Of a stretch of 64,000 nt of DNA, positions 41,146 to 54,380 are shown piece by piece. Numbering within the stretch: the stretch's first letter is position 1; the number at the start of each line of letters is the position of its first letter. The position numbers and the translations under genes are program-made. Under the pieces are notes generated by a model that saw only the letters and a list, made by a program, of their open reading frames with translations, made no database searches and was not told where the DNA came from. The stretch is from a virus: IMG/VR virus record IMGVR_UViG_3300047673_000554, positions 1-64,000 of that record, one strand, 5' to 3'.

Positions 41146-41640
41146 CTACTCACCATACATAGAAATTTCCGCTCGCAAATTGTTTGCGGTAACGAATCCC
41201 ACCAACTGAACAAGCACCACAACAAGAACACTCAACAAACAAGCACCCCGAATAGACAAGGCACCCCACACCCAATATTGCGAAAACCCCAATTTCTGTG
41301 CAAAAGCCATTTCCCCAACAGCACCAACAACAAATGCAACCACAATCAAGACAACAACCAAAACAACATTAACAATAACTTCTCGCTTCAAATCAGTCAA
41401 AGCGCTAACAACCAACACGTACGCCTGCGGCTTTTGCAACCTTAACTTCCTTGGGACATCCTTCAAGATTCCTTCAACGTAGTTAAAAAACGCGAACGAT
41501 AGAGCCCCGAACAATGCACCCAAGGCGAATAAAACAGTATTAACATTACTAAACATTGGGCTAGCCTCCCCTGCCGACCCCCATAATGACAGGAAGGAAA
41601 GACCGAACGATGTTAAAAACACAAATACCAGGCGAAGCAT
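41146..41640 (-). CDS. ~4-TM membrane protein (cargo)
   Basis: Hydrophobic segments; starts 1 nt after the partner stop. Confidence 0.75.
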   Translation of the reverse strand: MLRLVFVFLTSFGLSFLSLWGSAGEASPMFSNVNTVLFALGALFGALSFAFFNYVEGILKDVPRKLRLQKPQAYVLVVSALTDLKREVIVNVVLVVVLIVVAFVVGAVGEMAFAQKLGFSQYWVWGALSIRGACLLSVLVVVLVQLVGFVTANNLRAEISMYGE

Positions 41641-41641
41641 A

Positions 41642-42586
41642 CTAACGCCTCAATGAATTACCTATAGCAGAATAAACTTCAGCCACCATGCGGGCATCGT
41701 TATCAGAACGACCCGGAGCAGGCTGTCCAGTTTCAAGTTCCAGCTGCCCCTCGTGCATCACTACCTCATCCGATGGAACATCCAGATCAAGAGTAACTAT
41801 AGCAGAGATGCTTTTATGTGTTTTTTTGCCACCATGATCACCTTCAGTAGTAACACTCCACTTACCTTCTCCCTCCTCAATATAATCCACGTAATCTTCA
41901 ATGGGCGCCTTCGGGATTCTGAGGTCGCCATATTCGTTACTCAGTGTAATCTTAACCTCATCTTGATCAAAAAGCTCTTTCATGGCCTTAAGTGCATCAC
42001 GTGCTTTGACATTCGTTTCTAAAATATTTGGAGAGATGAGCTCCAACTCAACTTTATACACTTTCTTATGAGTTTTAATAACATTCCAAAACTCACCTTT
42101 AATGGTTTTCGGCTCAATGAAAATCGAGTAATTATACTCATTCAAGACAGCGTCTTTTAATCCCGCATGAATAGCATTTGCAATTTGTTCTTCAGTACCA
42201 AAGCGCCAATCATGCTGTACAAAAACATACTGCTCCACGATATCCACTATTGTAATTACTGGAACCCAATCATCAGCATCATGAGGGACAATATCACCTG
42301 GTATCTTATCGCCAACTTTTGTTATTTTGTGTTTAGCCGTCTTCCCGACCAGAAATCTTCCCTTCGGGAATTCATCAGCTATAGGGTCAACGTACGAAAA
42401 GCCTACAAAACTATAACGAACCTTATTTTTAACAAACTCACTGCCATCGTCCTGAAGGGCAGAAACGACCACCGCTCCTTTGGGGCTCGGTAAGGGCTTT
42501 GGAACAAGGGCGCCCTGCTTGTTTTCGATCAACGAGTATCGCAGCACTAAAAACGGTTTGATTCCTTTCACAACAAAATCCTTCAA
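41642..42586 (-). CDS. Soluble cargo protein (DUF4747/RexA/KwaB-like?)
   Basis: 314 aa, AT-rich, TTG start, VELELISPN motif. Confidence 0.55.
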   Translation of the reverse strand: MKDFVVKGIKPFLVLRYSLIENKQGALVPKPLPSPKGAVVVSALQDDGSEFVKNKVRYSFVGFSYVDPIADEFPKGRFLVGKTAKHKITKVGDKIPGDIVPHDADDWVPVITIVDIVEQYVFVQHDWRFGTEEQIANAIHAGLKDAVLNEYNYSIFIEPKTIKGEFWNVIKTHKKVYKVELELISPNILETNVKARDALKAMKELFDQDEVKITLSNEYGDLRIPKAPIEDYVDYIEEGEGKWSVTTEGDHGGKKTHKSISAIVTLDLDVPSDEVVMHEGQLELETGQPAPGRSDNDARMVAEVYSAIGNSLRR

Positions 42587-42691: not shown

Positions 42692-43780
42692 CTAAACCAG
42701 CTTGCTTAACCACTCCCACTTTTTATAAGCGTCCCCTCTCCCTCGAAGGTGGGTATACCGCCTCAACGAGTTCCAGTCCCTGTGCCCTGAAACACTCGAC
42801 ACTCTCGGGATATCCCAGTCCATCTCAAACAACCGACTCACCCCTTCGTGTCGCAGATCATGGAAATGCAGGTCTTCGATGCCTAGCATCGGGCAGGCCC
42901 GGGTGAAGGACGCCGACACCGACCTGGCGTTGTAGGGAAAGATCTCCACTTCCGTTTTGGGCATGGACTGCAGGATCGCCCAGGCTTCATCCGGCAGATG
43001 ACACCACACGTTGTTGCCGATCTTCTGCCCGGGGTTTTTCATGTCCCGCACCAGGACGGCCTGACGGATCTCATCCAGGTCCTCCCAGCGAATCCGCGTA
43101 ATCTCTTCCTGCCGGCGAGTTGAGAAGAGCGCGAAAGCAATCAGCTTTGGCATATCGATTTGGCTTTTTCGACGCTCCTGCATTTCGAAAAAATGCTTCA
43201 TCAGCTTGTCCAGCTCATCAAGGGTTGGCCGACGGTTACGCTCCTTGCTCTTGCTCACCATGCCCAACTTGCGCAACACCCTGCGTGCGTCGGACATGGC
43301 CAGCGGGTTCACCTCATAACCCCAGGCTGGCCTCGCCACGGACAGCACCGCCCCTAGGTGCGACAAATCGTTGCCGACTGTCTGCGCCTGGACGCCACCA
43401 CCCTCCTTGCTCATTCGCCACTGCGCGAACTCCACCAGCTTCTGACTACTCAGCGCCGCGTCGTCGAGCTCGCCCAACCAGGTGTCCTTGATCGCGTTCA
43501 GCGTGGCGCTCTTGGTCTTGCCCAGCGGTCGGATCTTCTCGTACTCATCCAGGTACTGCTGGATCATCTTCTTGATCGTCACCCCTTTGCGGTTCGCGCG
43601 CTCGATGGCACCCGGTTCCGCCAGCTCTGTTTCCCGGCGCTTGATCCAAGCCTGGGCTACCTGCTTGCGGTCGAAGGTTTGGCTTTCCTGATAAACTGTC
43701 TTCCCGTCCCGATTGATCCGTATCTGCGCCGTGTAGGCCGTCGAGTTGTCCTTGCGCTTACGTGATGTGATCGTGCCCAT
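42692..43780 (-). CDS. int: Tyrosine integrase (dusA-associated type)
   Basis: STRRQEEI, HDLRHEG, SGHRDW...RYTH; next to the dusA 5-prime fragment. Confidence 0.93.
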   Translation of the reverse strand: MGTITSRKRKDNSTAYTAQIRINRDGKTVYQESQTFDRKQVAQAWIKRRETELAEPGAIERANRKGVTIKKMIQQYLDEYEKIRPLGKTKSATLNAIKDTWLGELDDAALSSQKLVEFAQWRMSKEGGGVQAQTVGNDLSHLGAVLSVARPAWGYEVNPLAMSDARRVLRKLGMVSKSKERNRRPTLDELDKLMKHFFEMQERRKSQIDMPKLIAFALFSTRRQEEITRIRWEDLDEIRQAVLVRDMKNPGQKIGNNVWCHLPDEAWAILQSMPKTEVEIFPYNARSVSASFTRACPMLGIEDLHFHDLRHEGVSRLFEMDWDIPRVSSVSGHRDWNSLRRYTHLRGRGDAYKKWEWLSKLV

Positions 43781-43984: not shown

Positions 43985-44413
43985 CGGTCCCCCCCCCCGC
44001 AAATAAAGGCCGTTAGGTCTGTTCTAAATCCCCGGTACCAATTTCGTACCAGCAACATTCGTCCTCCATCAAATCCGAGTAGCTCTCTCACCCGCTGTAG
44101 CAAATTTTAAGCAACCGTTTTCGGCTCCAATCATGGGCACTGTTGTGACTGCCCCCCCTTATCCGCTACAGTTTCCAGGTTGATTGTTGATTGTTTATTT
44201 TTGCATGTATGTACACGCACGCTCTGCGTTAATAAAAACAAAATATATCACTACACCCCCCTAACCTCGCTCATATTATCAATGCACATTACAACCCCTT
44301 TAAACTAAAAAATACGCCCCCATCGCCAAAGCAAAAAGAATTTGAAAATTAATTTAAAAAATGAGAAGGTGGCATTTTGCCCACAATGGATTGCATCCCT
44401 AAGGAAATATTAA

Positions 44414-46231
44414 ATGATTGTAACTTCAGCAATGGCTGCCGCAGCCATACGCAGCCTCACTCCGCTGATTGGTGCAGCCTACAAAGGTGCAAGCAAATCA
44501 TTGAAATCCAGTTTTTCAAACTGGTCCAATACGAATAGTAATGAAGAAATTGCGAATCATCTTTTACAGATCGGCGTTGTTAAAACAATCTGGTCATCAG
44601 GAAAAAGCAAGTTTATTAAAGACTTTTATTACCCATCAAAGATTGACGAAATCAACGATGGCGAGGGCATTGACCATGTCGATCAACTCCCTAAAGGAAA
44701 CATAGTTATTCAAGGCATAGTTGGCCAGGGCAAATCTATGTTCATGCGCCACCTAGCTTGTTCTGCCATTGGAGAAATTGGGAACTCTTATATACCGGTA
44801 TTCATTGAACTTCAAAAGATAAGTTCAAAAAAAGGCTTGAAACAGATCATATTTGAAAACTTGGAACTATTGGGAATCACAGTAACTGAAGAGAGTGTTA
44901 AATATCTAGCATCAAAAGGCTACTTAGTCTTTCTGTTAGATGGATTTGATGAAGTCGTAGATGCATGCATCAATGAAACTGTTGAAGCGCTTGATGAATT
45001 TCAGAGACGCTATCCAAAACTTAAAATCATTGTCTCATCACGCCCCGGTAGTGGCATCCAGCAGATGGTAGGCTTCGAAGTTCTAGATCTGACGCCTTTA
45101 ACGGAAGATGATTACGAACCTTTCTTAAAGTGCCTCCAGCTAGATACCGTAAAAAGAGAGGCGTTGATAGCCGCAACTGAATCTGCTCCAGATTCAGTTA
45201 AAGAAATTATAAGCACACCATTAATGCTCACGTTAGTTGTTTGGGTTTACGAATCCGAACAAGAAATTCCATCTACGCTAAGAGATTTCTTTGAAAAACT
45301 ATTCCATGTCGTTTTCACCAGACACGATAGTTTAAAGGTTGGCTTTACAAGACAACACTACAGCGGTCTTTCGGAAACAAAACTCCTACAACTTTTTGAG
45401 GCGTTCTGTTTTATGATCGTTCAAGAAAATTTCGGAAGAAGTTTAACACGACCAGAATTTAATACTGCATTCACCAATGCACTTGAGTATTCAGAAGCAA
45501 CAAATTGCGATGTGGACCATTTCAGAAAAGACATTGTAAAAGTCGCATGCCTGATGCTGGAAGATGGCCTTGACCTAACTACTTTTCTGCACAAAAGCAT
45601 TTTGGATTATTATGCCGCCGCATTTATATTACACAGCGAAGAAGAGTTATCCGAACTATTTTATTCGGACGCTTTTGAAGGATTTAGCCAATGGCAGCAT
45701 GTGTTATTCTTCTTAGCTGACGCTGACAAATACCGATATTCAAAACATTATTTACTCACCCATTTCCAACCGGGCATTGATGAAATCGATCAGTTACTTA
45801 AATCAAAGAGTGACGATATTTTATTACGACACATAAATAAGAAGCATACTGGCTTCACTTACTTAATTAGTGAAAAAGGGCAAATGCTTGGTTGGTCAGG
45901 CGCCAAATCGGCAGCAACGCAAATTGGTATCTATTTTGAAAGAGCATTAATTTACGGAGGCCAAAAAATATTCAATGGGAGTTTACCTGCCACCCAGCTA
46001 GCCCAAATAATAAAAGTTGCGGCTGTACAAGGGAAAAACAAACCTGCAGGTAGAAACTATTATCACATTGAAATCAGCGAGGTTATGCGCATTATTGGCA
46101 CTGATTCATACTGGCGCGAAATTGCTCTCATCGATCTTGAATTACACAAAAAAATGGACGAGGCACAACGCACAGTTGAACATCAAAACAAAAAGAAAAA
46201 AATCTTTGGTAAAAAACTGAAGCCCCGCTAA
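44414..46231 (+). CDS. NACHT NTPase (bacterial NLR-related protein)
   Basis: Walker A GIVGQGKS, Walker B LLDGFDE, SSRP, TPLML, FLHKS. Confidence 0.85.
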   Translation: MIVTSAMAAAAIRSLTPLIGAAYKGASKSLKSSFSNWSNTNSNEEIANHLLQIGVVKTIWSSGKSKFIKDFYYPSKIDEINDGEGIDHVDQLPKGNIVIQGIVGQGKSMFMRHLACSAIGEIGNSYIPVFIELQKISSKKGLKQIIFENLELLGITVTEESVKYLASKGYLVFLLDGFDEVVDACINETVEALDEFQRRYPKLKIIVSSRPGSGIQQMVGFEVLDLTPLTEDDYEPFLKCLQLDTVKREALIAATESAPDSVKEIISTPLMLTLVVWVYESEQEIPSTLRDFFEKLFHVVFTRHDSLKVGFTRQHYSGLSETKLLQLFEAFCFMIVQENFGRSLTRPEFNTAFTNALEYSEATNCDVDHFRKDIVKVACLMLEDGLDLTTFLHKSILDYYAAAFILHSEEELSELFYSDAFEGFSQWQHVLFFLADADKYRYSKHYLLTHFQPGIDEIDQLLKSKSDDILLRHINKKHTGFTYLISEKGQMLGWSGAKSAATQIGIYFERALIYGGQKIFNGSLPATQLAQIIKVAAVQGKNKPAGRNYYHIEISEVMRIIGTDSYWREIALIDLELHKKMDEAQRTVEHQNKKKKIFGKKLKPR

Positions 46232-47304: not shown

Positions 47305-47955
47305 ATGCAGGATCACGTACTCAAGCGCATCGATGAACTGATTTCGCGGGGCAATGCCGCCGCCCGGTCACAATCATCCCAAGACTATTGGATGAAAGAC
47401 GTCGTGGAGGCACAGAGTTGGTTCTCGTCCGCGGCTAACGCGATACACCAGGTCGCCCCGCCTGGCAGTTTCTACATGGCAGAGCTGCAGAGGATCGTCG
47501 AGCATGAGCAACTCCAAAGCGGCTTCCCGATTTCCTCCGTCGAAAAACTCCTTGGTCTGCTTCAGTCGGTGCAGCTTGAAGCGCGAGCTGGGTTGCTGGT
47601 CAAACTCGAGGACCAAGTAGTCGCCTCAGCGTTCGATGACTTTCTTGATCACGCGACGCAGTATCACAAGGCCGGCAAGGTCAACGAAGCTGCTGTCCTG
47701 GCTTCTGCGGTGCTTGAAGACACTATCAAGCGCATAGCACGGAAGTCTGAGATTGCGGTTGGTGGTGTGTCTCTCGAACCTCTCATTGATGAACTGACCA
47801 AGCGCAGCGTCTTTACGCAGGTGAAGGCGAAGCGTTTGAAATCATACGCAGCGGTTCGCAACCACGCTCTTCACGCGGAGTGGGAGAAATTGGACATTAG
47901 AGACGTTGGTGCACAACTCTCTGGGCTTCGTGAACTTCTAGATGAGCATCTTTGA
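47305..47955 (+). CDS. DUF4145/HEPN-domain protein (gene cassette)
   Basis: AAVLASAVLED...AVRNHALHAEW (Rx4H). Confidence 0.75.
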   Translation: MQDHVLKRIDELISRGNAAARSQSSQDYWMKDVVEAQSWFSSAANAIHQVAPPGSFYMAELQRIVEHEQLQSGFPISSVEKLLGLLQSVQLEARAGLLVKLEDQVVASAFDDFLDHATQYHKAGKVNEAAVLASAVLEDTIKRIARKSEIAVGGVSLEPLIDELTKRSVFTQVKAKRLKSYAAVRNHALHAEWEKLDIRDVGAQLSGLRELLDEHL

Positions 47956-47962
47956 CGCTGAC

Positions 47963-48020
47963 GCCTAACCCGTCGTTCCAGCCGACCGCCTTCGGCGGCG
48001 GTTGAACTCCAACGTTATGC
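47963..48020 (+). other. Integron attC site (58 bp)
   Basis: GCCTAAC-N5-GTTCCAGC-hairpin-GTTGAAC-N6-GTTATGC; R and L boxes with an extrahelical base. Confidence 0.8.
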
Positions 48021-48503: not shown

Positions 48504-48888
48504 CTTTTTTAATCGTTTTTTTATCATCCAATGATTTTTTTGCTGTAGGACTGCGGTTACACACTACTGCGTTCATCAATACTGCAAGCGTCATCTTGAT
48601 CAATCCTCGTTGCGATCGGCAGCCACACGGCGCCCCAGGCATCGCCGACTACATCGCACGATCAGCGTCCCTCCACCCATTGCGGCGCTCCAAGACGGCA
48701 TCCTCAGGAGTGCATTTGTTCTCATTAGCCGCAAATGAGTGCGAAGGCTACAGCGCTGAATTTAGCTACCTTAGCCCTCCATAGCCGTTCGACAACCTCC
48801 AAACACCTTAACTCGCTCTAGCATTACACCCTTAGAAATGCTATCTAAATCGAAAGTCGTTTAAGTAATCAGCGTAGGAGTTAAATGG

Positions 48889-50610
48889 ATGTTTCAGCAA
48901 CCTCAAATTTTTTTAATTGATACGGATGAAGATATTTCTAAGGCCATCCTTAAAAGCTGGTCTAATATTGGTACTGGAACGCTCGGCACCCCATATGAAA
49001 CTCCTACTGATAGTGACTGGCGCCCAGTAATCCAAAATAAACCGCTGGGTAAATTTGAGGAATCAGATTTAATCATTGTTGATCTTTCATCAAAAAAATT
49101 AGCACATCATGCACCAGGCGAAAAGCACACACCGACAGGAGAAGTAGATCTATGGGCGAAGTGTGACAAAGGCTGGATTGATGCCAGAGTTCGCACAGTT
49201 TTATCCGCAAAAGCAGATCTGAATAGAATTGTAAGGAATGGCGGCGTACTTATCATTTTTGCCGCACCTGATAGCCCAATGAATTTTCAATGGGCAACAG
49301 TTAGCAACTATCGAATGTCAACTCGAAGTACCGTTGATGGTGGAGTATGGAATCTTGCCGACCCACTAGATCGATTGAGAGTTGATGCCGAGTCTGGATC
49401 CGTAATTAACGTAACAGACAACTCCCCAATAGGATCGCTTTTAAAACGGCATTTGACAGGTGCCGAATTCACATGTGTGTTCAGCTCTGTATGGGATCAC
49501 GACTCAACATGGAAATCATTAGCGACTAATAAGTATGGCGTGAGTGTTGCGGTCTCTGCTGAACATGGCAACGGACATATTTTCGTACTCCCTCAGTTAA
49601 TAGAAAAAGCACGGTTCATCGAAGAGTTATTAGGGTCAATTCTTCCTGAAATAGTACCCAACCTATTTCCAGATATCGAAAAAGGCAAATGGACTCATCG
49701 GCCGGAATACGAACTTGAGCGTGTTAAAGAATTAGAATCTCGAAAAGCCTTAGTAATCGCCGAGGCAGAAAAACAACTCAATAACATACAACAAGAAATC
49801 GATGAAAATCGTGCCGCGAATGGCTGGCTACATGATCTAATTACGGGAACAGGTGATGACCTAGTTAACGCTATAAAAATCGCCCTTTCAGAACTAGGCT
49901 TTCAGCGTGTTATAGACGTTGATGAAATACGAGACGCTGAAGGCAAAAGCCGACGCGAAGACCTTCGAATAGAAGACGGCGACCCGCTCTTGATTGTCGA
50001 CATCAAAGGCGTCGGCGGGAGAGCTGGTGACGATGACATTATGCAAGCAAACAAACACGCCTTAATTAACATGAGGGAACTAGACAGAACCAACATTCAA
50101 GGTTTATCGATAATTAACCAGCAAAGACATTTACCCCCATTAGAAAGGGATAACAACGAAGCTTTTCGAAAGGAAATAGTAGATTTTGCTGGTGAAACAG
50201 GCCTAGGGCTACTAACTGCATTCGACCTTTATCGAATAGTTGTAAACAAACAAAGACACGGCTGGTTACCAGATTGGGTAAAACCGCTTTTTTTTAGGCA
50301 TCAACGCATTACTGCTGTGCCTACGCACTATAAATATCTAGGAACAATCTCCAAAGTCTTTACCGAAGTTTTTGGCATGCATATATTAGAAAACGAAATC
50401 GAAGTAGGCGACTACTTAGCGGTGGAGGGAGACATTTATTTTGAGGAGGTCGAAGTTCTGTCAATACAAGTAGAAAATGTTGAAGTAACAAGTGCTGCCG
50501 TTGGGGATCGTGCGGGCTTCAAATGGCCACAAAGTGCAGCGAAGCTTCGAGAGAATATGCGCGTCTATGCAATACCTCGCTCATTTCAAGACTCGAGGTT
50601 GCAGCCTTAA
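48889..50610 (+). CDS. Coiled-coil + PD-(D/E)xK nuclease + EF-Tu-domain-II-like barrel protein
   Basis: REDLRIEDGDPLLIVDIKG; C-terminal IEVGDYL...VLSIQVENVEVTSAAVGDRAG; AT-rich. Confidence 0.65.
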   Translation: MFQQPQIFLIDTDEDISKAILKSWSNIGTGTLGTPYETPTDSDWRPVIQNKPLGKFEESDLIIVDLSSKKLAHHAPGEKHTPTGEVDLWAKCDKGWIDARVRTVLSAKADLNRIVRNGGVLIIFAAPDSPMNFQWATVSNYRMSTRSTVDGGVWNLADPLDRLRVDAESGSVINVTDNSPIGSLLKRHLTGAEFTCVFSSVWDHDSTWKSLATNKYGVSVAVSAEHGNGHIFVLPQLIEKARFIEELLGSILPEIVPNLFPDIEKGKWTHRPEYELERVKELESRKALVIAEAEKQLNNIQQEIDENRAANGWLHDLITGTGDDLVNAIKIALSELGFQRVIDVDEIRDAEGKSRREDLRIEDGDPLLIVDIKGVGGRAGDDDIMQANKHALINMRELDRTNIQGLSIINQQRHLPPLERDNNEAFRKEIVDFAGETGLGLLTAFDLYRIVVNKQRHGWLPDWVKPLFFRHQRITAVPTHYKYLGTISKVFTEVFGMHILENEIEVGDYLAVEGDIYFEEVEVLSIQVENVEVTSAAVGDRAGFKWPQSAAKLRENMRVYAIPRSFQDSRLQP

Positions 50611-50741: not shown

Positions 50742-50768
50742 ATGAAAAGGCCCCGCACATGCGGGGCA
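50742..50768 (-). terminator. Late-operon terminator of prophage 2
   Basis: GCCCCGCA-TG-TGCGGGGC-CTTTT on the minus strand. Confidence 0.65.
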
Positions 50769-50778
50769 TGAGCCGTAT

Positions 50779-51504
50779 TCAAGGAATTGCGTACGCTCTG
50801 TGTAGTTCGATGGAAGCCGCCTCGATATCCGAATTGTTCAGTGCACGGTCGTATGCCCTGATAAAGGCATAGCCTCCCACCAGCCCTGCTGTGGCCAGCG
50901 CCGATCCTTGCCCGCCCAGAATATTCCGTCCGCTGAGAGACACCCCGGTCGCGCCTTCGACGATTGGGCTAGTGCCGACTTTGATTTTGGAGGTTGGACC
51001 GTCGAACACGGCGAGGATGACCGTCCACTCGGTCGATTTGTCACTGCTTTCCAGTCGACTGGCCGCTGAGATACTTTCATAGAAGCCATTCGCACCTGGT
51101 GCGAGGATCTGGGCGCCCGACGCCATCAGACGCGCCTGATTCGCCGCAAAGACAGAAGCCTTGACCACCATCGCGTAAGTCATCGACTGCGCGATAGCGA
51201 CCGTGCCCGGGCCATTTCCGATCTGCTGTGTCCCGTCAAATAACACGGCTGGGTTGCCACCTGGTCCACCAGTCAGCGAAAACTTCGGTTTCCCCCAGCC
51301 CGTGTACTGGAAGTTGAAAGTGCGGTTGACGATCGGCGCCGGTCCGTTTGCCAGCCAGGTGTCCACGGCAGCACCGTCGGCCAGTGCGGCCAGACTCGCG
51401 GCATCGAGCTCGTAAATGATGTTCGACTGCACATCAGGGATGGTTGGGGTATCGGAGAGAGGGTTGGACAACACACCAGGTGCGCTAATCACGAGAGAAA
51501 ACAT
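50779..51504 (-). CDS. LamG/concanavalin-like beta-sandwich protein
   Basis: ELDA...PAVLFDG...WTVILAVFDG...RAYDRALN. Confidence 0.6.
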   Translation of the reverse strand: MFSLVISAPGVLSNPLSDTPTIPDVQSNIIYELDAASLAALADGAAVDTWLANGPAPIVNRTFNFQYTGWGKPKFSLTGGPGGNPAVLFDGTQQIGNGPGTVAIAQSMTYAMVVKASVFAANQARLMASGAQILAPGANGFYESISAASRLESSDKSTEWTVILAVFDGPTSKIKVGTSPIVEGATGVSLSGRNILGGQGSALATAGLVGGYAFIRAYDRALNNSDIEAASIELHRAYAIP

Positions 51505-51523: not shown

Positions 51524-53428
51524 TCAGCGCAGCGCGGTGTAGAAGAATTCAGAAATCACTGGGGCGCCCTTGGCCGGATCCGGATGGATTTTGTCATCAC
51601 TGATCAGCGGGGTTTGCCCGGTACTGGCGTACTTCGCCGGGTCACCCATGGCCGCGTACTGCATATCCATAAAGGCAATGCCCTGCGTCCAGCACCAGGC
51701 AGCGGCGAGCTTGGTGTAGGCACTCATGGGGTACTGACTGGATCGTGTGGTGTCCCATCGCATGGCGACGATGAAGGACGCGCCGGGATGGACTTCCAGG
51801 TGAGTCGCGACCACGCCCTGCAGGTTGGCGAGAAAGGTCGCCGGCGTGACTGATGCGCCCTGATCGTTACCGCCCAGCATCACCAGCACGGCATCTGCGG
51901 GAATGAAGCCCGTGGCGGTCTTCTGCTGCGTTAACCAGGTCGTATCGTTCTTGTACCAGTCACCCGAGGCCGAACCGCTGGCCGCGCACTTGGAGACGAC
52001 CACACCCGACGTACTGTTTTCGGTGTAGATGCCAAACAGCGTCGGCGTGCCGGTGAAGACTTCCATGCGCAGCTTCCAGTTACCGCCAGCAGGCAACACC
52101 GGAAAGGCCACTTGCTGGGGCCCCACCCCGGACAGCGACAACGTGTTCCACTCCAGGGCATCACCCCAGCGATACCGCAGGGTGGAATTTGTGCCATCGC
52201 CCAGGAATAGCAGCTTCGCCAGTGTCGCCGCTGTCGAGATATCCGCGGTGTCGACGGCTGCGATGCTCACGTAATCACCCACAGCCCCCGCCTTGATCGT
52301 CCTGTTGTCGGGACTGGCCGCGCCCAATGGCGATAGCGTCCAGCTGCCGCCGAAGTAGGTCAGGCTGCCATTGGTGTACAAGAAGTTTTTCGTGCCCAGG
52401 GACGAGCCGTGGTTGAAGCCGATGTAACCCGAACCGCCAAAGCCAAAGTCTTTGGCTAAAAACCGGGTGAGGTCGTTCATGTAGAAGTTGTGAGCGGCGG
52501 AATAGGAGTCGCCGATGATTTTTAGGTACAGCTTTACCCCAGGTACACCCGCGCGAATCTGGCCTTGCTTCATTCGCATTTTGGGCACGTTGGAGATGTT
52601 GTTGTAGGCCGTCTTCGGATGACTGTCGTCACTCCCGATCAGCGGTTTCAGCCGCTTGGCCCAACGAAAGATCACCCAGTCCGGCACCTGACCGTCGGTG
52701 TCGCGGATCGACAAATCAGTCAGGCGTCCCAGGGCATCAGGAAACGCATACAGCAGACCCGGGACATACGCTGGCTTGACGCCCAGGTACTTGTACAACA
52801 TCTTCAGCGCCCAATTGCTCGGCCCGCCATCCCGATTATTGATGCCCATCCACGTTTCATGGCCGGCGGCATCACGCACTGCCACCAACGTGTCATTGAC
52901 GGTCTGAACTTTGAATTTGCTCTGCACAAAGCTGTTGATCGTTTCGACGGCGGTCGAGCTCGGGTAGCGCGTTTGCTCAATTGCCACCCCCGCTTCATTT
53001 TTAAACAGAATCAGCGACTGGGCGTTCTCGGGTGAAACCACCGTGAAAAACATGCCGTCGGTCGTGGTGCGCAAGCCTTCCGCCGTGCTGGCTTTCACGC
53101 CGGCAGCCAACTGGGCCGCATCCCTTGCCGATTCTGCGCGTAACGCCGCGCCGTTCGCCTCGGCTAGGGATTCGGTGACGTCCAGGAACTGGACGGGCAA
53201 ACGGTAATCCCGTTTTCCTTTGGTGATGCGCAGGTCATACAGCCCGTTCGGCGCGGCAAACTGGGCCAATCCGTTTGCGTCGGCCAGGAACGGGTTGAGC
53301 AATCCTAAGCCGTTGCTTTTACGTAAACCGAAGACGATGTTTTCGGTGCCGCGCTCGTACAGGTAGCAGGTCGCAGCGGGCAAGGCATTGCCCAGGTCAT
53401 CCTGTGCAAAGAAACTCTTGAGTTCCAA
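51524..53428 (-). CDS. Tailspike-like protein with SGNH/GDSL esterase domain
   Basis: TTG start; virion-attachment-like N-terminus; IIGDS, GGND, DKIHP. Confidence 0.75.
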   Translation of the reverse strand: MELKSFFAQDDLGNALPAATCYLYERGTENIVFGLRKSNGLGLLNPFLADANGLAQFAAPNGLYDLRITKGKRDYRLPVQFLDVTESLAEANGAALRAESARDAAQLAAGVKASTAEGLRTTTDGMFFTVVSPENAQSLILFKNEAGVAIEQTRYPSSTAVETINSFVQSKFKVQTVNDTLVAVRDAAGHETWMGINNRDGGPSNWALKMLYKYLGVKPAYVPGLLYAFPDALGRLTDLSIRDTDGQVPDWVIFRWAKRLKPLIGSDDSHPKTAYNNISNVPKMRMKQGQIRAGVPGVKLYLKIIGDSYSAAHNFYMNDLTRFLAKDFGFGGSGYIGFNHGSSLGTKNFLYTNGSLTYFGGSWTLSPLGAASPDNRTIKAGAVGDYVSIAAVDTADISTAATLAKLLFLGDGTNSTLRYRWGDALEWNTLSLSGVGPQQVAFPVLPAGGNWKLRMEVFTGTPTLFGIYTENSTSGVVVSKCAASGSASGDWYKNDTTWLTQQKTATGFIPADAVLVMLGGNDQGASVTPATFLANLQGVVATHLEVHPGASFIVAMRWDTTRSSQYPMSAYTKLAAAWCWTQGIAFMDMQYAAMGDPAKYASTGQTPLISDDKIHPDPAKGAPVISEFFYTALR

Positions 53429-53429
53429 A

Positions 53430-54380
53430 TTAGGCTCCCGTGATGGGCTTGAGCTGCCCAGTAAGCTGTAGGCCGGTACCGGCGTTGGTAGTGAAGTTCG
53501 CGGCGTTGGCAGGGACAGGGCTAGGTCCGTGGACGTGGGCCGCCAGTTCGGTGTTCGTCTGCGTGACCAGGTCAATCAGATCGCACAGCACCTGCAGTAC
53601 GTTGACCGACTCAGAGCCCAACCAGGTCTTGGCAGCGATGCTGCGGCGGGCACCTTCGATGCGCTCGAGCAGCTGGCCTCCCACGGTCAAATTGAGCTTC
53701 TGGCCCACCACCTGGTTGAGGTCACGCCCGCTGGCCAGGTGCAAGTCATCCAGTGCGGCCAGGCTGGCGGAACCGCCCGACAGCAACTTGAGCGAGCCGA
53801 TCGCTTCGATCGTCTTAATGCCCCCGACCGACTCGGTCGAATGGTCGTCCACCGTCACCGTGCTGCTCTGGTGGCGCTCGACGTTGGTCAGGCTTTCAAC
53901 CTCACGCTCGATCGACTTGTCCAGAATCCGGCCATCGGTCTGGCGCAGCCAGTTGCCGTCCGCATCGGCGCGCTGCTGGGCGGCGTCGCTGTGCTGCCAC
54001 ACCTGGTCACCTTTCGGCACCTTGGGCAGACTCAGGCCGTGCGGCAGGATTGCCTGGATAAACGGCTTGCTCGGCAGGCCGTAGGCGAAGGACACGACAA
54101 CCCGTGTCCCTTCTTCAGGGAACGCGAAAAAGCCCATCTCATCGCCGCCCATAGGCATGGGCAGCGGCACGCCGGCGAGCACTGGCAGCTCCGGATCCGG
54201 CTCGTCATCCTCACCCAACAGTTCGAGGTCCACCGCAAAGCGCGGACGGAAGTCGTCGCAGATCCCGGCGCCGGCGGGAGCATCGGCCACACCCACCACG
54301 CGGGCGAAGCGCGGCAGGTGATAACCGCCGGTGAGTTCGGGAAATTGCCGCTCTACGCTGCGGCGGATTGCGTCTTCCAT
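53430..54380 (-). CDS. Baseplate spike (gpV-like)
   Basis: PEEGTRVVVSF OB-fold, beta repeats, C-terminal HVH. Confidence 0.7.
   Translation of the reverse strand: MEDAIRRSVERQFPELTGGYHLPRFARVVGVADAPAGAGICDDFRPRFAVDLELLGEDDEPDPELPVLAGVPLPMPMGGDEMGFFAFPEEGTRVVVSFAYGLPSKPFIQAILPHGLSLPKVPKGDQVWQHSDAAQQRADADGNWLRQTDGRILDKSIEREVESLTNVERHQSSTVTVDDHSTESVGGIKTIEAIGSLKLLSGGSASLAALDDLHLASGRDLNQVVGQKLNLTVGGQLLERIEGARRSIAAKTWLGSESVNVLQVLCDLIDLVTQTNTELAAHVHGPSPVPANAANFTTNAGTGLQLTGQLKPITGA

What the first reader, a model, noticed from the sequence alone, without database searches (positions are those of the whole stretch)
48889..50610. Nuclease fused to an EF-Tu-domain-II-like barrel: possible decoy-sensor defence protein
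Seen: AT-rich 573-aa moron oriented opposite to the prophage 2 tail operon. It has an unknown N-terminal domain, a coiled coil, an (E)D...DIK restriction-like nuclease core and a ~85-aa C-terminal barrel (IEVGD...VLSIQVENVEVTSAAVGDRAG). That barrel echoes the EF-Tu/EF-1A domain II pattern V.SIEM....V..A..GD..G. Known: some phage products engage EF-Tu (e.g. the T4 Gol peptide in Lit exclusion). Inference: the barrel may be a bait for phage proteins that bind translation factors, or a tRNA/ribosome-targeting module controlling the nuclease.
Basis: partly seen in the sequence, partly recalled or inferred. Interest (0 to 1): 0.75.

Follow-up and report, generated by a model that had tools for sequence, protein, structure and literature searches.

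The report
Nuclease fused to EF-Tu-like barrel
This prophage cargo gene encodes a member of a large, unnamed bacterial protein family that joins a FokI-type DNA-cutting domain to a small barrel shaped like domain II of translation factors; it is probably an undescribed one-gene anti-phage nuclease, but nothing supports the idea that the barrel is an EF-Tu decoy.

Summary
The ORF at 48889-50610 (+) is a real 573-aa gene. It is AT-rich (GC 0.41-0.44, against 0.56-0.65 in the neighbouring tail genes) and convergent with those genes.

A high-confidence AlphaFold2 model (pLDDT 95.5) shows four modules:
- a ThuA/class-I-glutamine-amidotransferase-like domain without a catalytic triad (residues 3-260);
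- a 43-residue heptad helix (277-319);
- a FokI-like PD-(D/E)xK cleavage domain (about 311-476), with E357 and D358 invariant, position 371 always D or E, and K373 nearly invariant;
- a C-terminal barrel (481-563) that superposes on domain II of eRF3, EF-Tu, eEF1A and SelB at Z about 11 and 2.0-2.2 Å.

No Pfam, NCBIfam, PHROG or PADLOC model matches the protein, yet full-length relatives fill more than 450 clusters.

Five of 29 informative genomic relatives sit inside type I restriction-modification operons, the slot PrrC occupies. One more lies beside an MmeI-like system, and a plasmid relative lies beside pifCA and an Abi gene.

Best reading: a solitary, autoinhibited, dimerising DNA endonuclease used in defence.

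The decoy idea is unsupported. The barrel is only 15-18% identical to EF-Tu, fits other barrels equally well, is acidic, and lacks EF-Tu's E259. A tRNA-directed role is still possible.

Another first-stage note in this scan flagged the same stretch.

The parts
48875..48880 (+). Shine-Dalgarno sequence TAGGAG, 8 nt upstream of the ATG
   Evidence: Read directly from the sequence
48889..50610 (+). CDS of 573 aa (P0001), including the stop codon
   Evidence: full-length homologues
48895..49668 (+). Residues 3-260: ThuA-like / class I glutamine-amidotransferase-like alpha/beta domain without a catalytic triad. Conserved D11, E58, D98, R100, W154, K215. Proposed role: sensor or oligomerisation module
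   Evidence: VIA-align: 5e9a Z 12.0 (176 aligned), 1t0b Z 10.9, 2gk3 Z 10.9, 3rht Z 10.7. No conserved Cys or His at 90% or more
49669..49716 (+). Residues 261-276: conserved linker (P261, W268, Y274, E275)
   Evidence: Alignments A1 and A2
49717..49845 (+). Residues 277-319: long helix with a heptad pattern, the putative dimerising coiled coil
   Evidence: DSSP on the AF2 model; 3.5-residue periodicity of conserved hydrophobic columns
49846..50316 (+). Residues 320-476: FokI-like PD-(D/E)xK nuclease domain. E357-D358 lie at nt 49957-49962 and D371-I-K373 at nt 49999-50007. D345, N410 and R420 are also invariant
   Evidence: 2fok Z 11.7-11.8, rmsd 3.1-3.2, 142-143 aligned; N.BspD6I Z 10.7-11.1; column counts
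50317..50577 (+). Residues 477-563: six-stranded barrel of the translation-factor domain II fold, preceded by the conserved P478-x-H480-Y481 motif. Net charge is -7
   Evidence: 3e20 Z 11.6, rmsd 2.1; 1exm Z 11.1, rmsd 2.2; 7anu Z 11.3-11.6; 4he5 Z 11.2. PF03144 sub-threshold hit at 50398-50523.
50750..50767 (-). GC-rich hairpin with a T-tail on the minus strand. It is a terminator-like site of the convergent tail gene, between the two gene ends
   Evidence: sequence

Best explanation
P0001 is a single-gene, mobile-element-borne defence nuclease of an undescribed family. Two chains pair through the heptad helix (277-319). This brings two FokI-type PD-(D/E)xK domains together so that they can cut both strands of DNA without sequence specificity, as FokI's cleavage domain does. 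The N-terminal ThuA/GATase1-like domain (no triad) and the acidic C-terminal EF-Tu-domain-II-like barrel are regulatory or sensing modules. They keep the nuclease silent in uninfected cells and release it on an infection cue. In relatives embedded in type I R-M operons, the cue may be the state of the restriction complex, as for PrrC. In this window the gene works alone. Shown here: the gene, the four predicted folds, the conserved catalytic motif, the fixed architecture, the sporadic and horizontally transferred distribution, and the genomic associations. Inferred: dimerisation, DNA as substrate, autoinhibition, the trigger, and the defence phenotype itself.
For: - The AF2 model has pLDDT 95.5.
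- The nuclease domain's nearest solved folds are all type IIS DNA-cleavage domains: FokI Z 11.7-11.8, N.BspD6I Z 10.7-11.1 and R.BspD6I small subunit Z 10.4.
- E357, D358, (D/E)371 and K373 are invariant or nearly so, and the nuclease is the best-conserved module (45% mean pairwise identity, against 27-33% for the others).
- The long helix has a heptad pattern.
- The only gene families that recur next to relatives are type I R-M subunits. This holds in 5 of 29 loci, with 0-15 nt gaps or overlaps, in two type I families and two gene orders.
- These embedded members are scattered over the family tree, which also disagrees with taxonomy.
- One relative lies next to SNF2 and MmeI-like genes. A full-length plasmid relative lies next to pifC-pifA and an Abi gene.
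- No conserved partner gene was found, and no methyltransferase is present in the 79.6-kb record.
- The gene is AT-rich cargo between an integrase and tail genes, close to a NACHT NTPase gene.
- The family is rare: none of the 400 other Pseudomonadota genomes sampled had a match.
Against: - There is no experimental evidence for defence, toxicity or nuclease activity.
- No PADLOC model matches.
- 23 of 29 genomic relatives have no recognisable defence neighbour within two genes.
- The family is almost absent from sequenced phages: one weak hit, and none in IMG/VR.
- All modules are net acidic, which is unusual for a DNA-binding enzyme.
- The oligomeric state was not modelled.
- Pfam's FokI cleavage-domain model does not match, even at E 10.
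- The role given to the barrel is only a placeholder.
Confidence: 0.55

Rival explanations
1. tRNA- or translation-directed nuclease (PrrC-like in logic). The barrel docks the acceptor end of (aminoacyl-)tRNA or a ribosomal site, as the equivalent barrels of EF-Tu, IF2-C2, eIF5B-IV and Pbp11 do. The PD-(D/E)xK domain then cuts RNA and shuts down translation on infection.
For: - The barrel fold equals the tRNA-end-binding domains of translation factors.
- A free-standing barrel of this fold, Pbp11, binds tRNA (PMC9540759).
- The gene occupies the slot in type I R-M operons that the anticodon nuclease gene prrC occupies in EcoprrI (PMC3874165).
- From my own knowledge, not checked here: some PD-(D/E)xK-fold toxins, such as CdiA-CT of B. 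pseudomallei 1026b, are tRNases.
Against: - The nearest folds of the nuclease domain are all DNases of the FokI type.
- The EF-Tu E259 equivalent is not conserved: Q in 69, R in 17 and E in 13 of 122 sequences.
- The barrel is acidic, net -7 here and -2.8 on average across the family.
- Most relatives are not in R-M operons.
Confidence: 0.13
2. Type IV-like, modification-dependent restriction enzyme. The N-domain or the barrel, or both, read a phage-specific DNA modification (for example glycosylated or hypermodified bases), and the FokI-like domains cut nearby. Unmodified host DNA is spared, so no methyltransferase is needed.
For: - It is a solitary nuclease with no cognate methyltransferase.
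- Its cleavage domain is type IIS-like.
- From my own knowledge: co-location with type I R-M genes is also typical of type IV enzymes such as Mrr, McrBC and GmrSD.
- The N-domain fold recurs as an accessory domain of carbohydrate-active enzymes (GH42, GH164, beta-1,2-glucosyltransferase, Agd3).
Against: - No known modified-base reader fold (SRA, EVE, ASCH, YTH, winged helix) was detected.
- Neither non-catalytic module is basic.
- No match to type IV models in PADLOC.
Confidence: 0.17
3. The barrel mimics EF-Tu domain II and baits phage proteins that target EF-Tu; their binding releases the nuclease.
For: The fold resembles EF-Tu domain II. Guard and decoy logic is known in immunity (my own knowledge).
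Against: - Identity to EF-Tu is only 15-18%.
- The fit to eRF3, SelB, IF2-C2, Pbp11 and U32-C is equally good.
- The family spans many phyla whose EF-Tu is highly conserved, yet the barrel is only 33% identical between members.
- The key EF-Tu surface residue is not kept.
Confidence: 0.04
4. Not a defence gene: a mobile-element maintenance or DNA-processing nuclease (addiction, recombination or repair) that hitch-hikes in variable regions.
For: Most loci show no defence neighbours. A Klebsiella plasmid copy sits beside a RelE/ParE toxin-antitoxin pair.
Against: - Repeated, tight embedding in type I R-M operons in at least four separate clades.
- No conserved partner such as an antitoxin.
- No recombinase or replication gene recurs next to it.
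Confidence: 0.11

Closest known systems
FokI / N.BspD6I type IIS cleavage domain (Pfam PF09254)
   Same: Same predicted fold: Z 11.7-11.8 to 2fok over 142-143 residues, and Z 10.7-11.1 to N.BspD6I. The same D...(D/E)xK catalytic arrangement is conserved across the family.
   Different: The Pfam model does not match, even at E 10. Identity is 16%. There is no sequence-recognition domain of the FokI kind and no adjacent methyltransferase. The domain sits in the middle of the protein, between a coiled coil and a barrel.
Domain II of translational GTPases (EF-Tu, eEF1A, eRF3, SelB; Pfam PF03144) and related barrels (IF2-C2, eIF5B-IV, Pbp11, U32-peptidase C-domain)
   Same: Six-stranded barrel that superposes at 2.0-2.5 Å over 80-84 residues, with Z 10.7-11.6. 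Weak profile similarity.
   Different: No GTPase domain is attached. The score is below the Pfam cut-off (13.9 against 30.3 bits). EF-Tu E259 is not conserved. The barrel is acidic and is fused to a nuclease.
PrrC anticodon nuclease of the EcoprrI type IC locus
   Same: Relatives occupy the same kind of slot inside type I R-M operons. The order is hsdM-hsdS-X-hsdR in L009, L019 and L023, and hsdR-X-hsdM-hsdS in L013 and L028. PrrC is described in PMC3874165. This suggests a second-line effector coupled to the restriction complex.
   Different: There is no homology: PrrC is an ABC-ATPase-like protein with a C-terminal anticodon-nuclease domain. The window's copy and most relatives have no R-M neighbour. 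The substrate here is unknown and is more likely DNA.
ThuA-like / class I glutamine amidotransferase-like domains (1t0b, 2gk3, 3rht; domain B of GH42 enzymes)
   Same: Fold of residues 3-260: Z 10.7-12.0 with 176-179 residues aligned.
   Different: No Cys-His-Glu triad and no conserved Cys or His at 90% or more. No Pfam match.
Single-protein defence nucleases with variable sensor domains (for example Shedu SduA)
   Same: One polypeptide with a PD-(D/E)xK effector plus non-catalytic modules. Sporadic, horizontally transferred distribution in variable regions.
   Different: No match to any PADLOC model, Shedu included. The architecture is fixed rather than modular: no shorter or longer forms were found.

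Membership tests
PD-(D/E)xK nuclease, FokI-type cleavage domain | Restriction-endonuclease-like alpha/beta core that superposes on the FokI cleavage domain | tested here: met
   2fok Z 11.7-11.8, rmsd 3.1-3.2 Å, 142-143 residues aligned; N.BspD6I and R.BspD6I2 Z 10.4-11.1. This rests on a predicted model with pLDDT 95.5.
PD-(D/E)xK nuclease, FokI-type cleavage domain | Conserved acidic residue on strand 2 and (D/E)-x-K on strand 3 | tested here: met
   D358 in 122 of 122 sequences; position 371 is E in 68 and D in 54; K373 in 120 of 122; E357 and D345 are also invariant.
PD-(D/E)xK nuclease, FokI-type cleavage domain | Match to Pfam PF09254 (FokI_cleav_dom) | tested here: not met
   No hit in the record at E<=10. 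No Pfam hit for the whole protein at E<=1.
PD-(D/E)xK nuclease, FokI-type cleavage domain | Metal-dependent DNA cleavage that needs dimerisation | not testable with these tools
   Needs biochemistry. Only a heptad helix hints at dimerisation.
Translation-factor domain II barrel (GTP_EFTU_D2, PF03144) | Barrel fold that superposes on EF-Tu domain II | tested here: met
   EF-Tu 1exm residues 220-308: Z 11.1, rmsd 2.2, 82 aligned. eRF3: Z 11.6, rmsd 2.1.
Translation-factor domain II barrel (GTP_EFTU_D2, PF03144) | Pfam model score above the gathering cut-off | tested here: not met
   13.9 bits against a cut-off of 30.3, at 50398-50523.
Translation-factor domain II barrel (GTP_EFTU_D2, PF03144) | Located after a translational GTPase domain | tested here: not met
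   The preceding domain is a nuclease. No P-loop or GTPase fold is present.
Translation-factor domain II barrel (GTP_EFTU_D2, PF03144) | Residue that contacts the tRNA 3' end (E. coli EF-Tu E259) is conserved | tested here: not met
   The aligned position 527 is Q in 69, R in 17, E in 13 and M in 9 of 122 sequences. The role of E259 is taken from PMC9540759.
Class I glutamine amidotransferase | Cys-His-Glu catalytic triad on the GATase1 fold | tested here: not met
   The fold is met (Z 10.6-10.9 to 1kxj, 3rht and 1t0b), but no Cys or His column reaches 90%. The best is C196 at 75%, and it is not at the nucleophile elbow.
PrrC-type R-M-coupled abortive-infection effector | Gene embedded within a type I R-M operon | tested here: inconclusive
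   Met for 5 of 29 relatives. Not met in this window: no N6_Mtase or Hsd gene in the 79.6-kb record.
PrrC-type R-M-coupled abortive-infection effector | ABC-ATPase-like N-domain and anticodon-nuclease C-domain | tested here: not met
   No such domains were found by Pfam or NCBIfam or by fold search.
Any catalogued anti-phage system (PADLOC-DB v2) | Match to a system protein model | tested here: not met
   0 families at E<=1. The library dates from 2023, so later catalogues were not tested.
Type II/IIS restriction-modification system | Cognate DNA methyltransferase encoded next to the nuclease | tested here: not met
   No methyltransferase among the neighbours, none in the record, and none recurrent outside type I operons.

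The most novel reading that the evidence does not exclude
The family is a PrrC-like second line of immunity built from different parts. It would be a FokI-fold nuclease whose EF-Tu-domain-II-like barrel docks the acceptor end of charged tRNA or the translation apparatus. Loss of restriction activity, or another infection cue, would then turn it into a translation-disabling RNA nuclease. That would make it the first PD-(D/E)xK defence enzyme aimed by a translation-factor module.
Probability: 0.12. Interest if true: 0.85.

Novelty: new variant of a known kind. Interest (0 to 1): 0.62.

Why it matters
If the defence role is confirmed, this would add a widespread single-gene system. The family has more than 450 sequence clusters across Pseudomonadota, Planctomycetota, Verrucomicrobiota, Acidobacteriota and others, and no curated library names it. 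Its domain combination has not been described: a ThuA/GATase1-like domain, a coiled coil, a FokI-like nuclease and a translation-factor-type barrel.

Its repeated insertion into type I R-M operons gives a second, unrelated test case for the PrrC principle, in which an effector is coupled to the state of a restriction complex.

The barrel raises a concrete question that can be tested: can translation-factor domain II modules be re-used outside translation to regulate or aim a nuclease?

Tried and rejected
- hmmscan of the protein against Pfam, NCBIfam, PHROGs and PADLOC gave nothing meaningful. The only hits were 16-bit matches to topoisomerase over the coiled coil.
- phmmer of the protein against PDB sequences gave nothing.
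- The Pfam FokI cleavage-domain and U32-C models gave no hit in the record.
- IMG/VR viral contigs held no relative. GenBank phages held one weak hit at 26% identity.
- Searches for N-domain-only short proteins and for longer fused forms found nothing. The tool itself rates the second result as weak evidence.
- A sample of 400 other Pseudomonadota genomes held no further copy, so it gave no extra context.
- The ESM Atlas returned only unnamed clusters.
- Literature searches for a described system with these domains found nothing relevant. The library is incomplete, so this does not prove the family is undescribed.
Context therefore came from genome-contig loci and plasmid records.
- No repeat or dyad specifically brackets the gene.
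- A functional pairing with the nearby NACHT gene was considered and rejected, because no NACHT gene recurs next to relatives.
- Model coordinates could not be read. Active-site geometry, surface electrostatics and the barrel-nuclease interface were therefore not examined.
Full report
**1. The observation**

The window holds a 1722-nt ORF at 48889-50610 on the + strand, encoding 573 aa. A TAGGAG ribosome-binding site lies 8 nt upstream of the ATG.

GC content is 0.41-0.44 across the gene. It is 0.56-0.65 in the minus-strand genes that begin at 50779. Those genes encode a tail-fibre protein with a GDSL esterase domain and two baseplate proteins. A GC-rich hairpin at 50750-50767 separates the convergent gene ends.

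To the left lie a tyrosine integrase (42692-43780, minus strand), an AT-rich NACHT NTPase gene (44414-46231) and several small ORFs without family matches. The record behind the window is an IMG/VR provirus of 79,597 bases.

The description 'AT-rich moron opposite to the tail operon' is therefore correct. Other first-stage notes place the right end of a first prophage near 44120. If so, the gene belongs to a cargo block between two phage-derived segments. I did not test this.

**2. It is a real, conserved gene of an unnamed family**

No Pfam, NCBIfam, PHROG or PADLOC model matches, and phmmer finds no PDB sequence. Even so, full-length relatives of 570-620 aa are plentiful:
- 194 clusters at 90% identity, including Pseudomonas (up to 73% identity), Burkholderia, Paraburkholderia, Dyella, Gallionellaceae and Victivallales, all labelled 'hypothetical'.
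- 1255 clusters at 50% identity with E<=1e-3, of which 454 have E<=1e-30.

All the listed hits cover the whole length. Searches for shorter N-domain-only proteins and for longer fusions found nothing, so the architecture appears fixed.

The family is rare per genome. None of the 400 other evenly sampled Pseudomonadota genomes carried it. Its tree also disagrees with taxonomy. For example, Lysobacteraceae, Verrucomicrobiaceae and Myxococcales copies sit in one tight clade. This points to horizontal transfer.

**3. Anatomy**

An AlphaFold2 model built on a 122-sequence alignment has mean pLDDT 95.5 and pTM 0.74. Two structure comparisons agree on three known folds and show no multi-domain match: a second look at Foldseek's hits and an exhaustive alignment to 48,161 PDB representatives.

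- **Residues 3-260: ThuA / class I glutamine-amidotransferase-like fold.**
  - Matches: GH42 domain B 5e9a Z 12.0 with 176 aligned; ThuA-like 1t0b Z 10.9; STM3548 2gk3 Z 10.9; GATase1-like 3rht Z 10.7.
  - No conserved Cys or His could form a triad.
  - The conserved polar residues are D11, E58, D98, R100 and K215, plus W154.
- **Residues 277-319: a single long helix.**
  - Its conserved hydrophobic columns repeat every 3.5 residues (spectral power 45, against <5 at other periods).
  - This is the signature of a coiled coil.
- **Residues about 311-476: FokI cleavage-domain fold.**
  - Matches: 2fok Z 11.7-11.8, rmsd 3.1-3.2 Å, 142-143 aligned, 16% identity; nickase N.BspD6I Z 10.7-11.1; R.BspD6I small subunit Z 10.4.
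  - The motif is E357-D358 ... (D/E)371-x-K373.
  - E357 and D358 are invariant; position 371 is E in 68 and D in 54 of 122 sequences; K373 occurs in 120 of 122.
  - D345, N410 and R420 are also invariant.
  - This is the best-conserved module: 45% mean pairwise identity, against 27-33% for the others.
- **Residues 481-563: six-stranded barrel matching domain II of translational GTPases.**
  - GTPase matches: eRF3 3e20 Z 11.6, rmsd 2.1, 81 aligned; EF-Tu 1exm residues 220-308 Z 11.1, rmsd 2.2; also eEF1A, SelB and GTPBP1.
  - It matches equally well the C-terminal barrels of IF2 and eIF5B, the free-standing Pbp11 (Z 11.3-11.6) and the C-domain of a U32 peptidase (Z 11.1-11.2).
  - Foldseek's top PDB hits for the whole model are IF2, eIF5B and EF-Tu.
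  - Sequence methods point the same way, weakly. Pfam GTP_EFTU_D2 gives its single hit in the record at 50398-50523 (13.9 bits, cut-off 30.3).
  - The family profile's best PDB matches are eIF5B barrels (E 0.012), and hhalign against a Burkholderia EF-Tu gives E 5.5e-4.

**4. Genomic associations**

Thirty loci from species-representative genomes were fetched with 8-kb flanks, and 29 had usable neighbours. Clustering of all neighbouring ORFs gave only three recurrent groups besides the family itself. These are HsdR, HsdS and HsdM of type I R-M systems.

Scans of the two nearest genes on each side against Pfam and PADLOC confirm that type I R-M families are the only recurrent neighbours.

In five loci the gene sits inside the operon, with gaps of 0-15 nt or overlapping stop and start codons:
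- hsdM-hsdS-X-hsdR in L019 and L023, and hsdS-X-hsdR in L009; these carry HindI-like HsdR.
- hsdR-X-hsdM-hsdS in L013 and L028, with EcoEI-like HsdR.

These five come from different phyla and lie at four or more separate places in the family tree. A sixth relative (L008) lies between an SNF2 helicase, a 2OG-oxygenase-like protein and an MmeI-like enzyme.

On a conjugative Klebsiella michiganensis plasmid, a full-length relative (hhalign E 1.4e-39) follows pifC-pifA and lies near an Abi gene. The remaining loci show unrelated housekeeping neighbours, as expected for a solitary cargo gene.

A random gene would sit next to hsd genes in well under 1% of cases (my estimate, from about six adjacent slots per type I operon in a genome of several thousand genes). 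Five of 29 is therefore a strong association.

**5. Most likely mechanism**

The evidence best fits a solitary, regulated DNA endonuclease used in defence against phages or other mobile DNA.

FokI-type domains are non-specific and need two copies to make a double-strand break (established knowledge of FokI). The heptad helix immediately upstream provides a plausible way to pair two of them.

A nuclease of this kind with no methyltransferase must be kept off host DNA. That requires either autoinhibition or a requirement for a phage-specific feature. The N-domain and the barrel are the only candidates for that control. I therefore propose that they sense a cue and gate the nuclease.

In R-M-embedded relatives the cue may be the state of the restriction complex, as for PrrC in EcoprrI (PMC3874165).

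The folds, motif, architecture and associations are shown. Dimerisation, DNA as substrate, autoinhibition, the trigger and the phenotype are inferred. I put this reading at 0.55.

**6. Rivals**

- **tRNA- or translation-directed nuclease (0.13).**
  - For: the barrel is the module that holds the tRNA acceptor end in EF-Tu, IF2 and eIF5B, and Pbp11 of the same fold binds tRNA (PMC9540759). The PrrC-like slot also fits.
  - Against: every close fold of the nuclease domain is a DNase. The EF-Tu E259 equivalent is Q in 69, R in 17 and E in 13 of 122 sequences. The barrel is acidic, net -7 here and -2.8 on average.
- **Type IV-like modification-dependent enzyme (0.17).** It fits the missing methyltransferase and the neighbourhood. 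However, no known modified-base reader fold is present.
Identity to EF-Tu is 15-18%. The barrel is no closer to EF-Tu than to six other barrel families. It is only 33% identical between family members, although EF-Tu itself is highly conserved across those hosts.
- **Non-defence maintenance or DNA-processing nuclease (0.11).** This cannot be excluded without experiments.

**7. Comparison with known systems and novelty**

By fold and motif the protein works like a FokI-type cleavage module, but it fails the Pfam model. Its barrel has the fold of translation-factor domain II. It fails the other defining features of that family, namely the score cut-off, an attached GTPase domain and the tRNA-contact residue.

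Some relatives sit where PrrC sits, but the protein shares no domain with PrrC. It matches no PADLOC system. I found no paper describing this domain combination, although the library is incomplete.

I class it as a new variant of a known kind: defence-island PD-(D/E)xK nucleases with accessory sensor modules. The domain combination appears to be undescribed, and the family is large and unnamed.

**8. Limits**

- All structural statements rest on one predicted monomer.
- Coordinates could not be inspected, so interfaces and electrostatics were not examined.
- No experiment exists for any family member that I could find.

Noticed in passing
window 44414-46231 (+): AT-rich 605-aa NACHT/STAND NTPase gene (Pfam NACHT E 3e-11; PHROG 32986 E 4e-61). 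It lies in the same cargo block, just right of the integrase, and is a candidate NLR-like (Avs-type) defence gene. It does not recur next to relatives of P0001.
   Followed up: partly
window 47963-48019: Directly after the ORF 47305-47955 lies a GCCTAAC ... hairpin ... GTTATGC element that resembles an integron attC site, followed by AAAAGGAG. Another first-stage note (e1-6046572) flagged it. I only read the sequence. The ORF itself has no Pfam or PHROG hit.
   Followed up: partly
window 51524-53575 (-): The 683-aa tail-fibre protein carries a C-terminal GDSL/SGNH esterase domain (Pfam E 9e-11; phrog_38670 tail fibre). This may be a receptor-modifying (deacetylase-type) tail enzyme.
   Followed up: no
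L023:5386-9030 (+): In a Candidatus Eisenbacteria MAG, the HsdR that follows the family member has a C-terminal Peptidase_S24 (LexA-like) domain fused to it (1214 aa; Pfam E 6e-7). This is an unusual HsdR fusion.
   Followed up: no
L008:184-11222: In a Terrimicrobiaceae MAG the family member lies in a co-directional block: an SNF2 helicase (1184 aa), an 800-aa protein with a 2OG-Fe(II) oxygenase domain, X, a 162-aa ORF and an MmeI-like type IIL enzyme. This may be a composite defence island.
   Followed up: partly
L032:3450-8674 (Klebsiella michiganensis plasmid NZ_CP024642.1): A full-length, 23%-identical relative of P0001 lies immediately downstream of pifC-pifA (the T7-exclusion genes of F-type plasmids). 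An Abi-family gene lies about 3 kb further on.
   Followed up: partly
window 41146-42586 (-): An AT-rich two-ORF module (314 aa and 164 aa) lies left of the integrase, with no Pfam or PHROG match for the larger ORF. Another first-stage note reads it as a RexAB/Kiwa-like pair.
   Followed up: no
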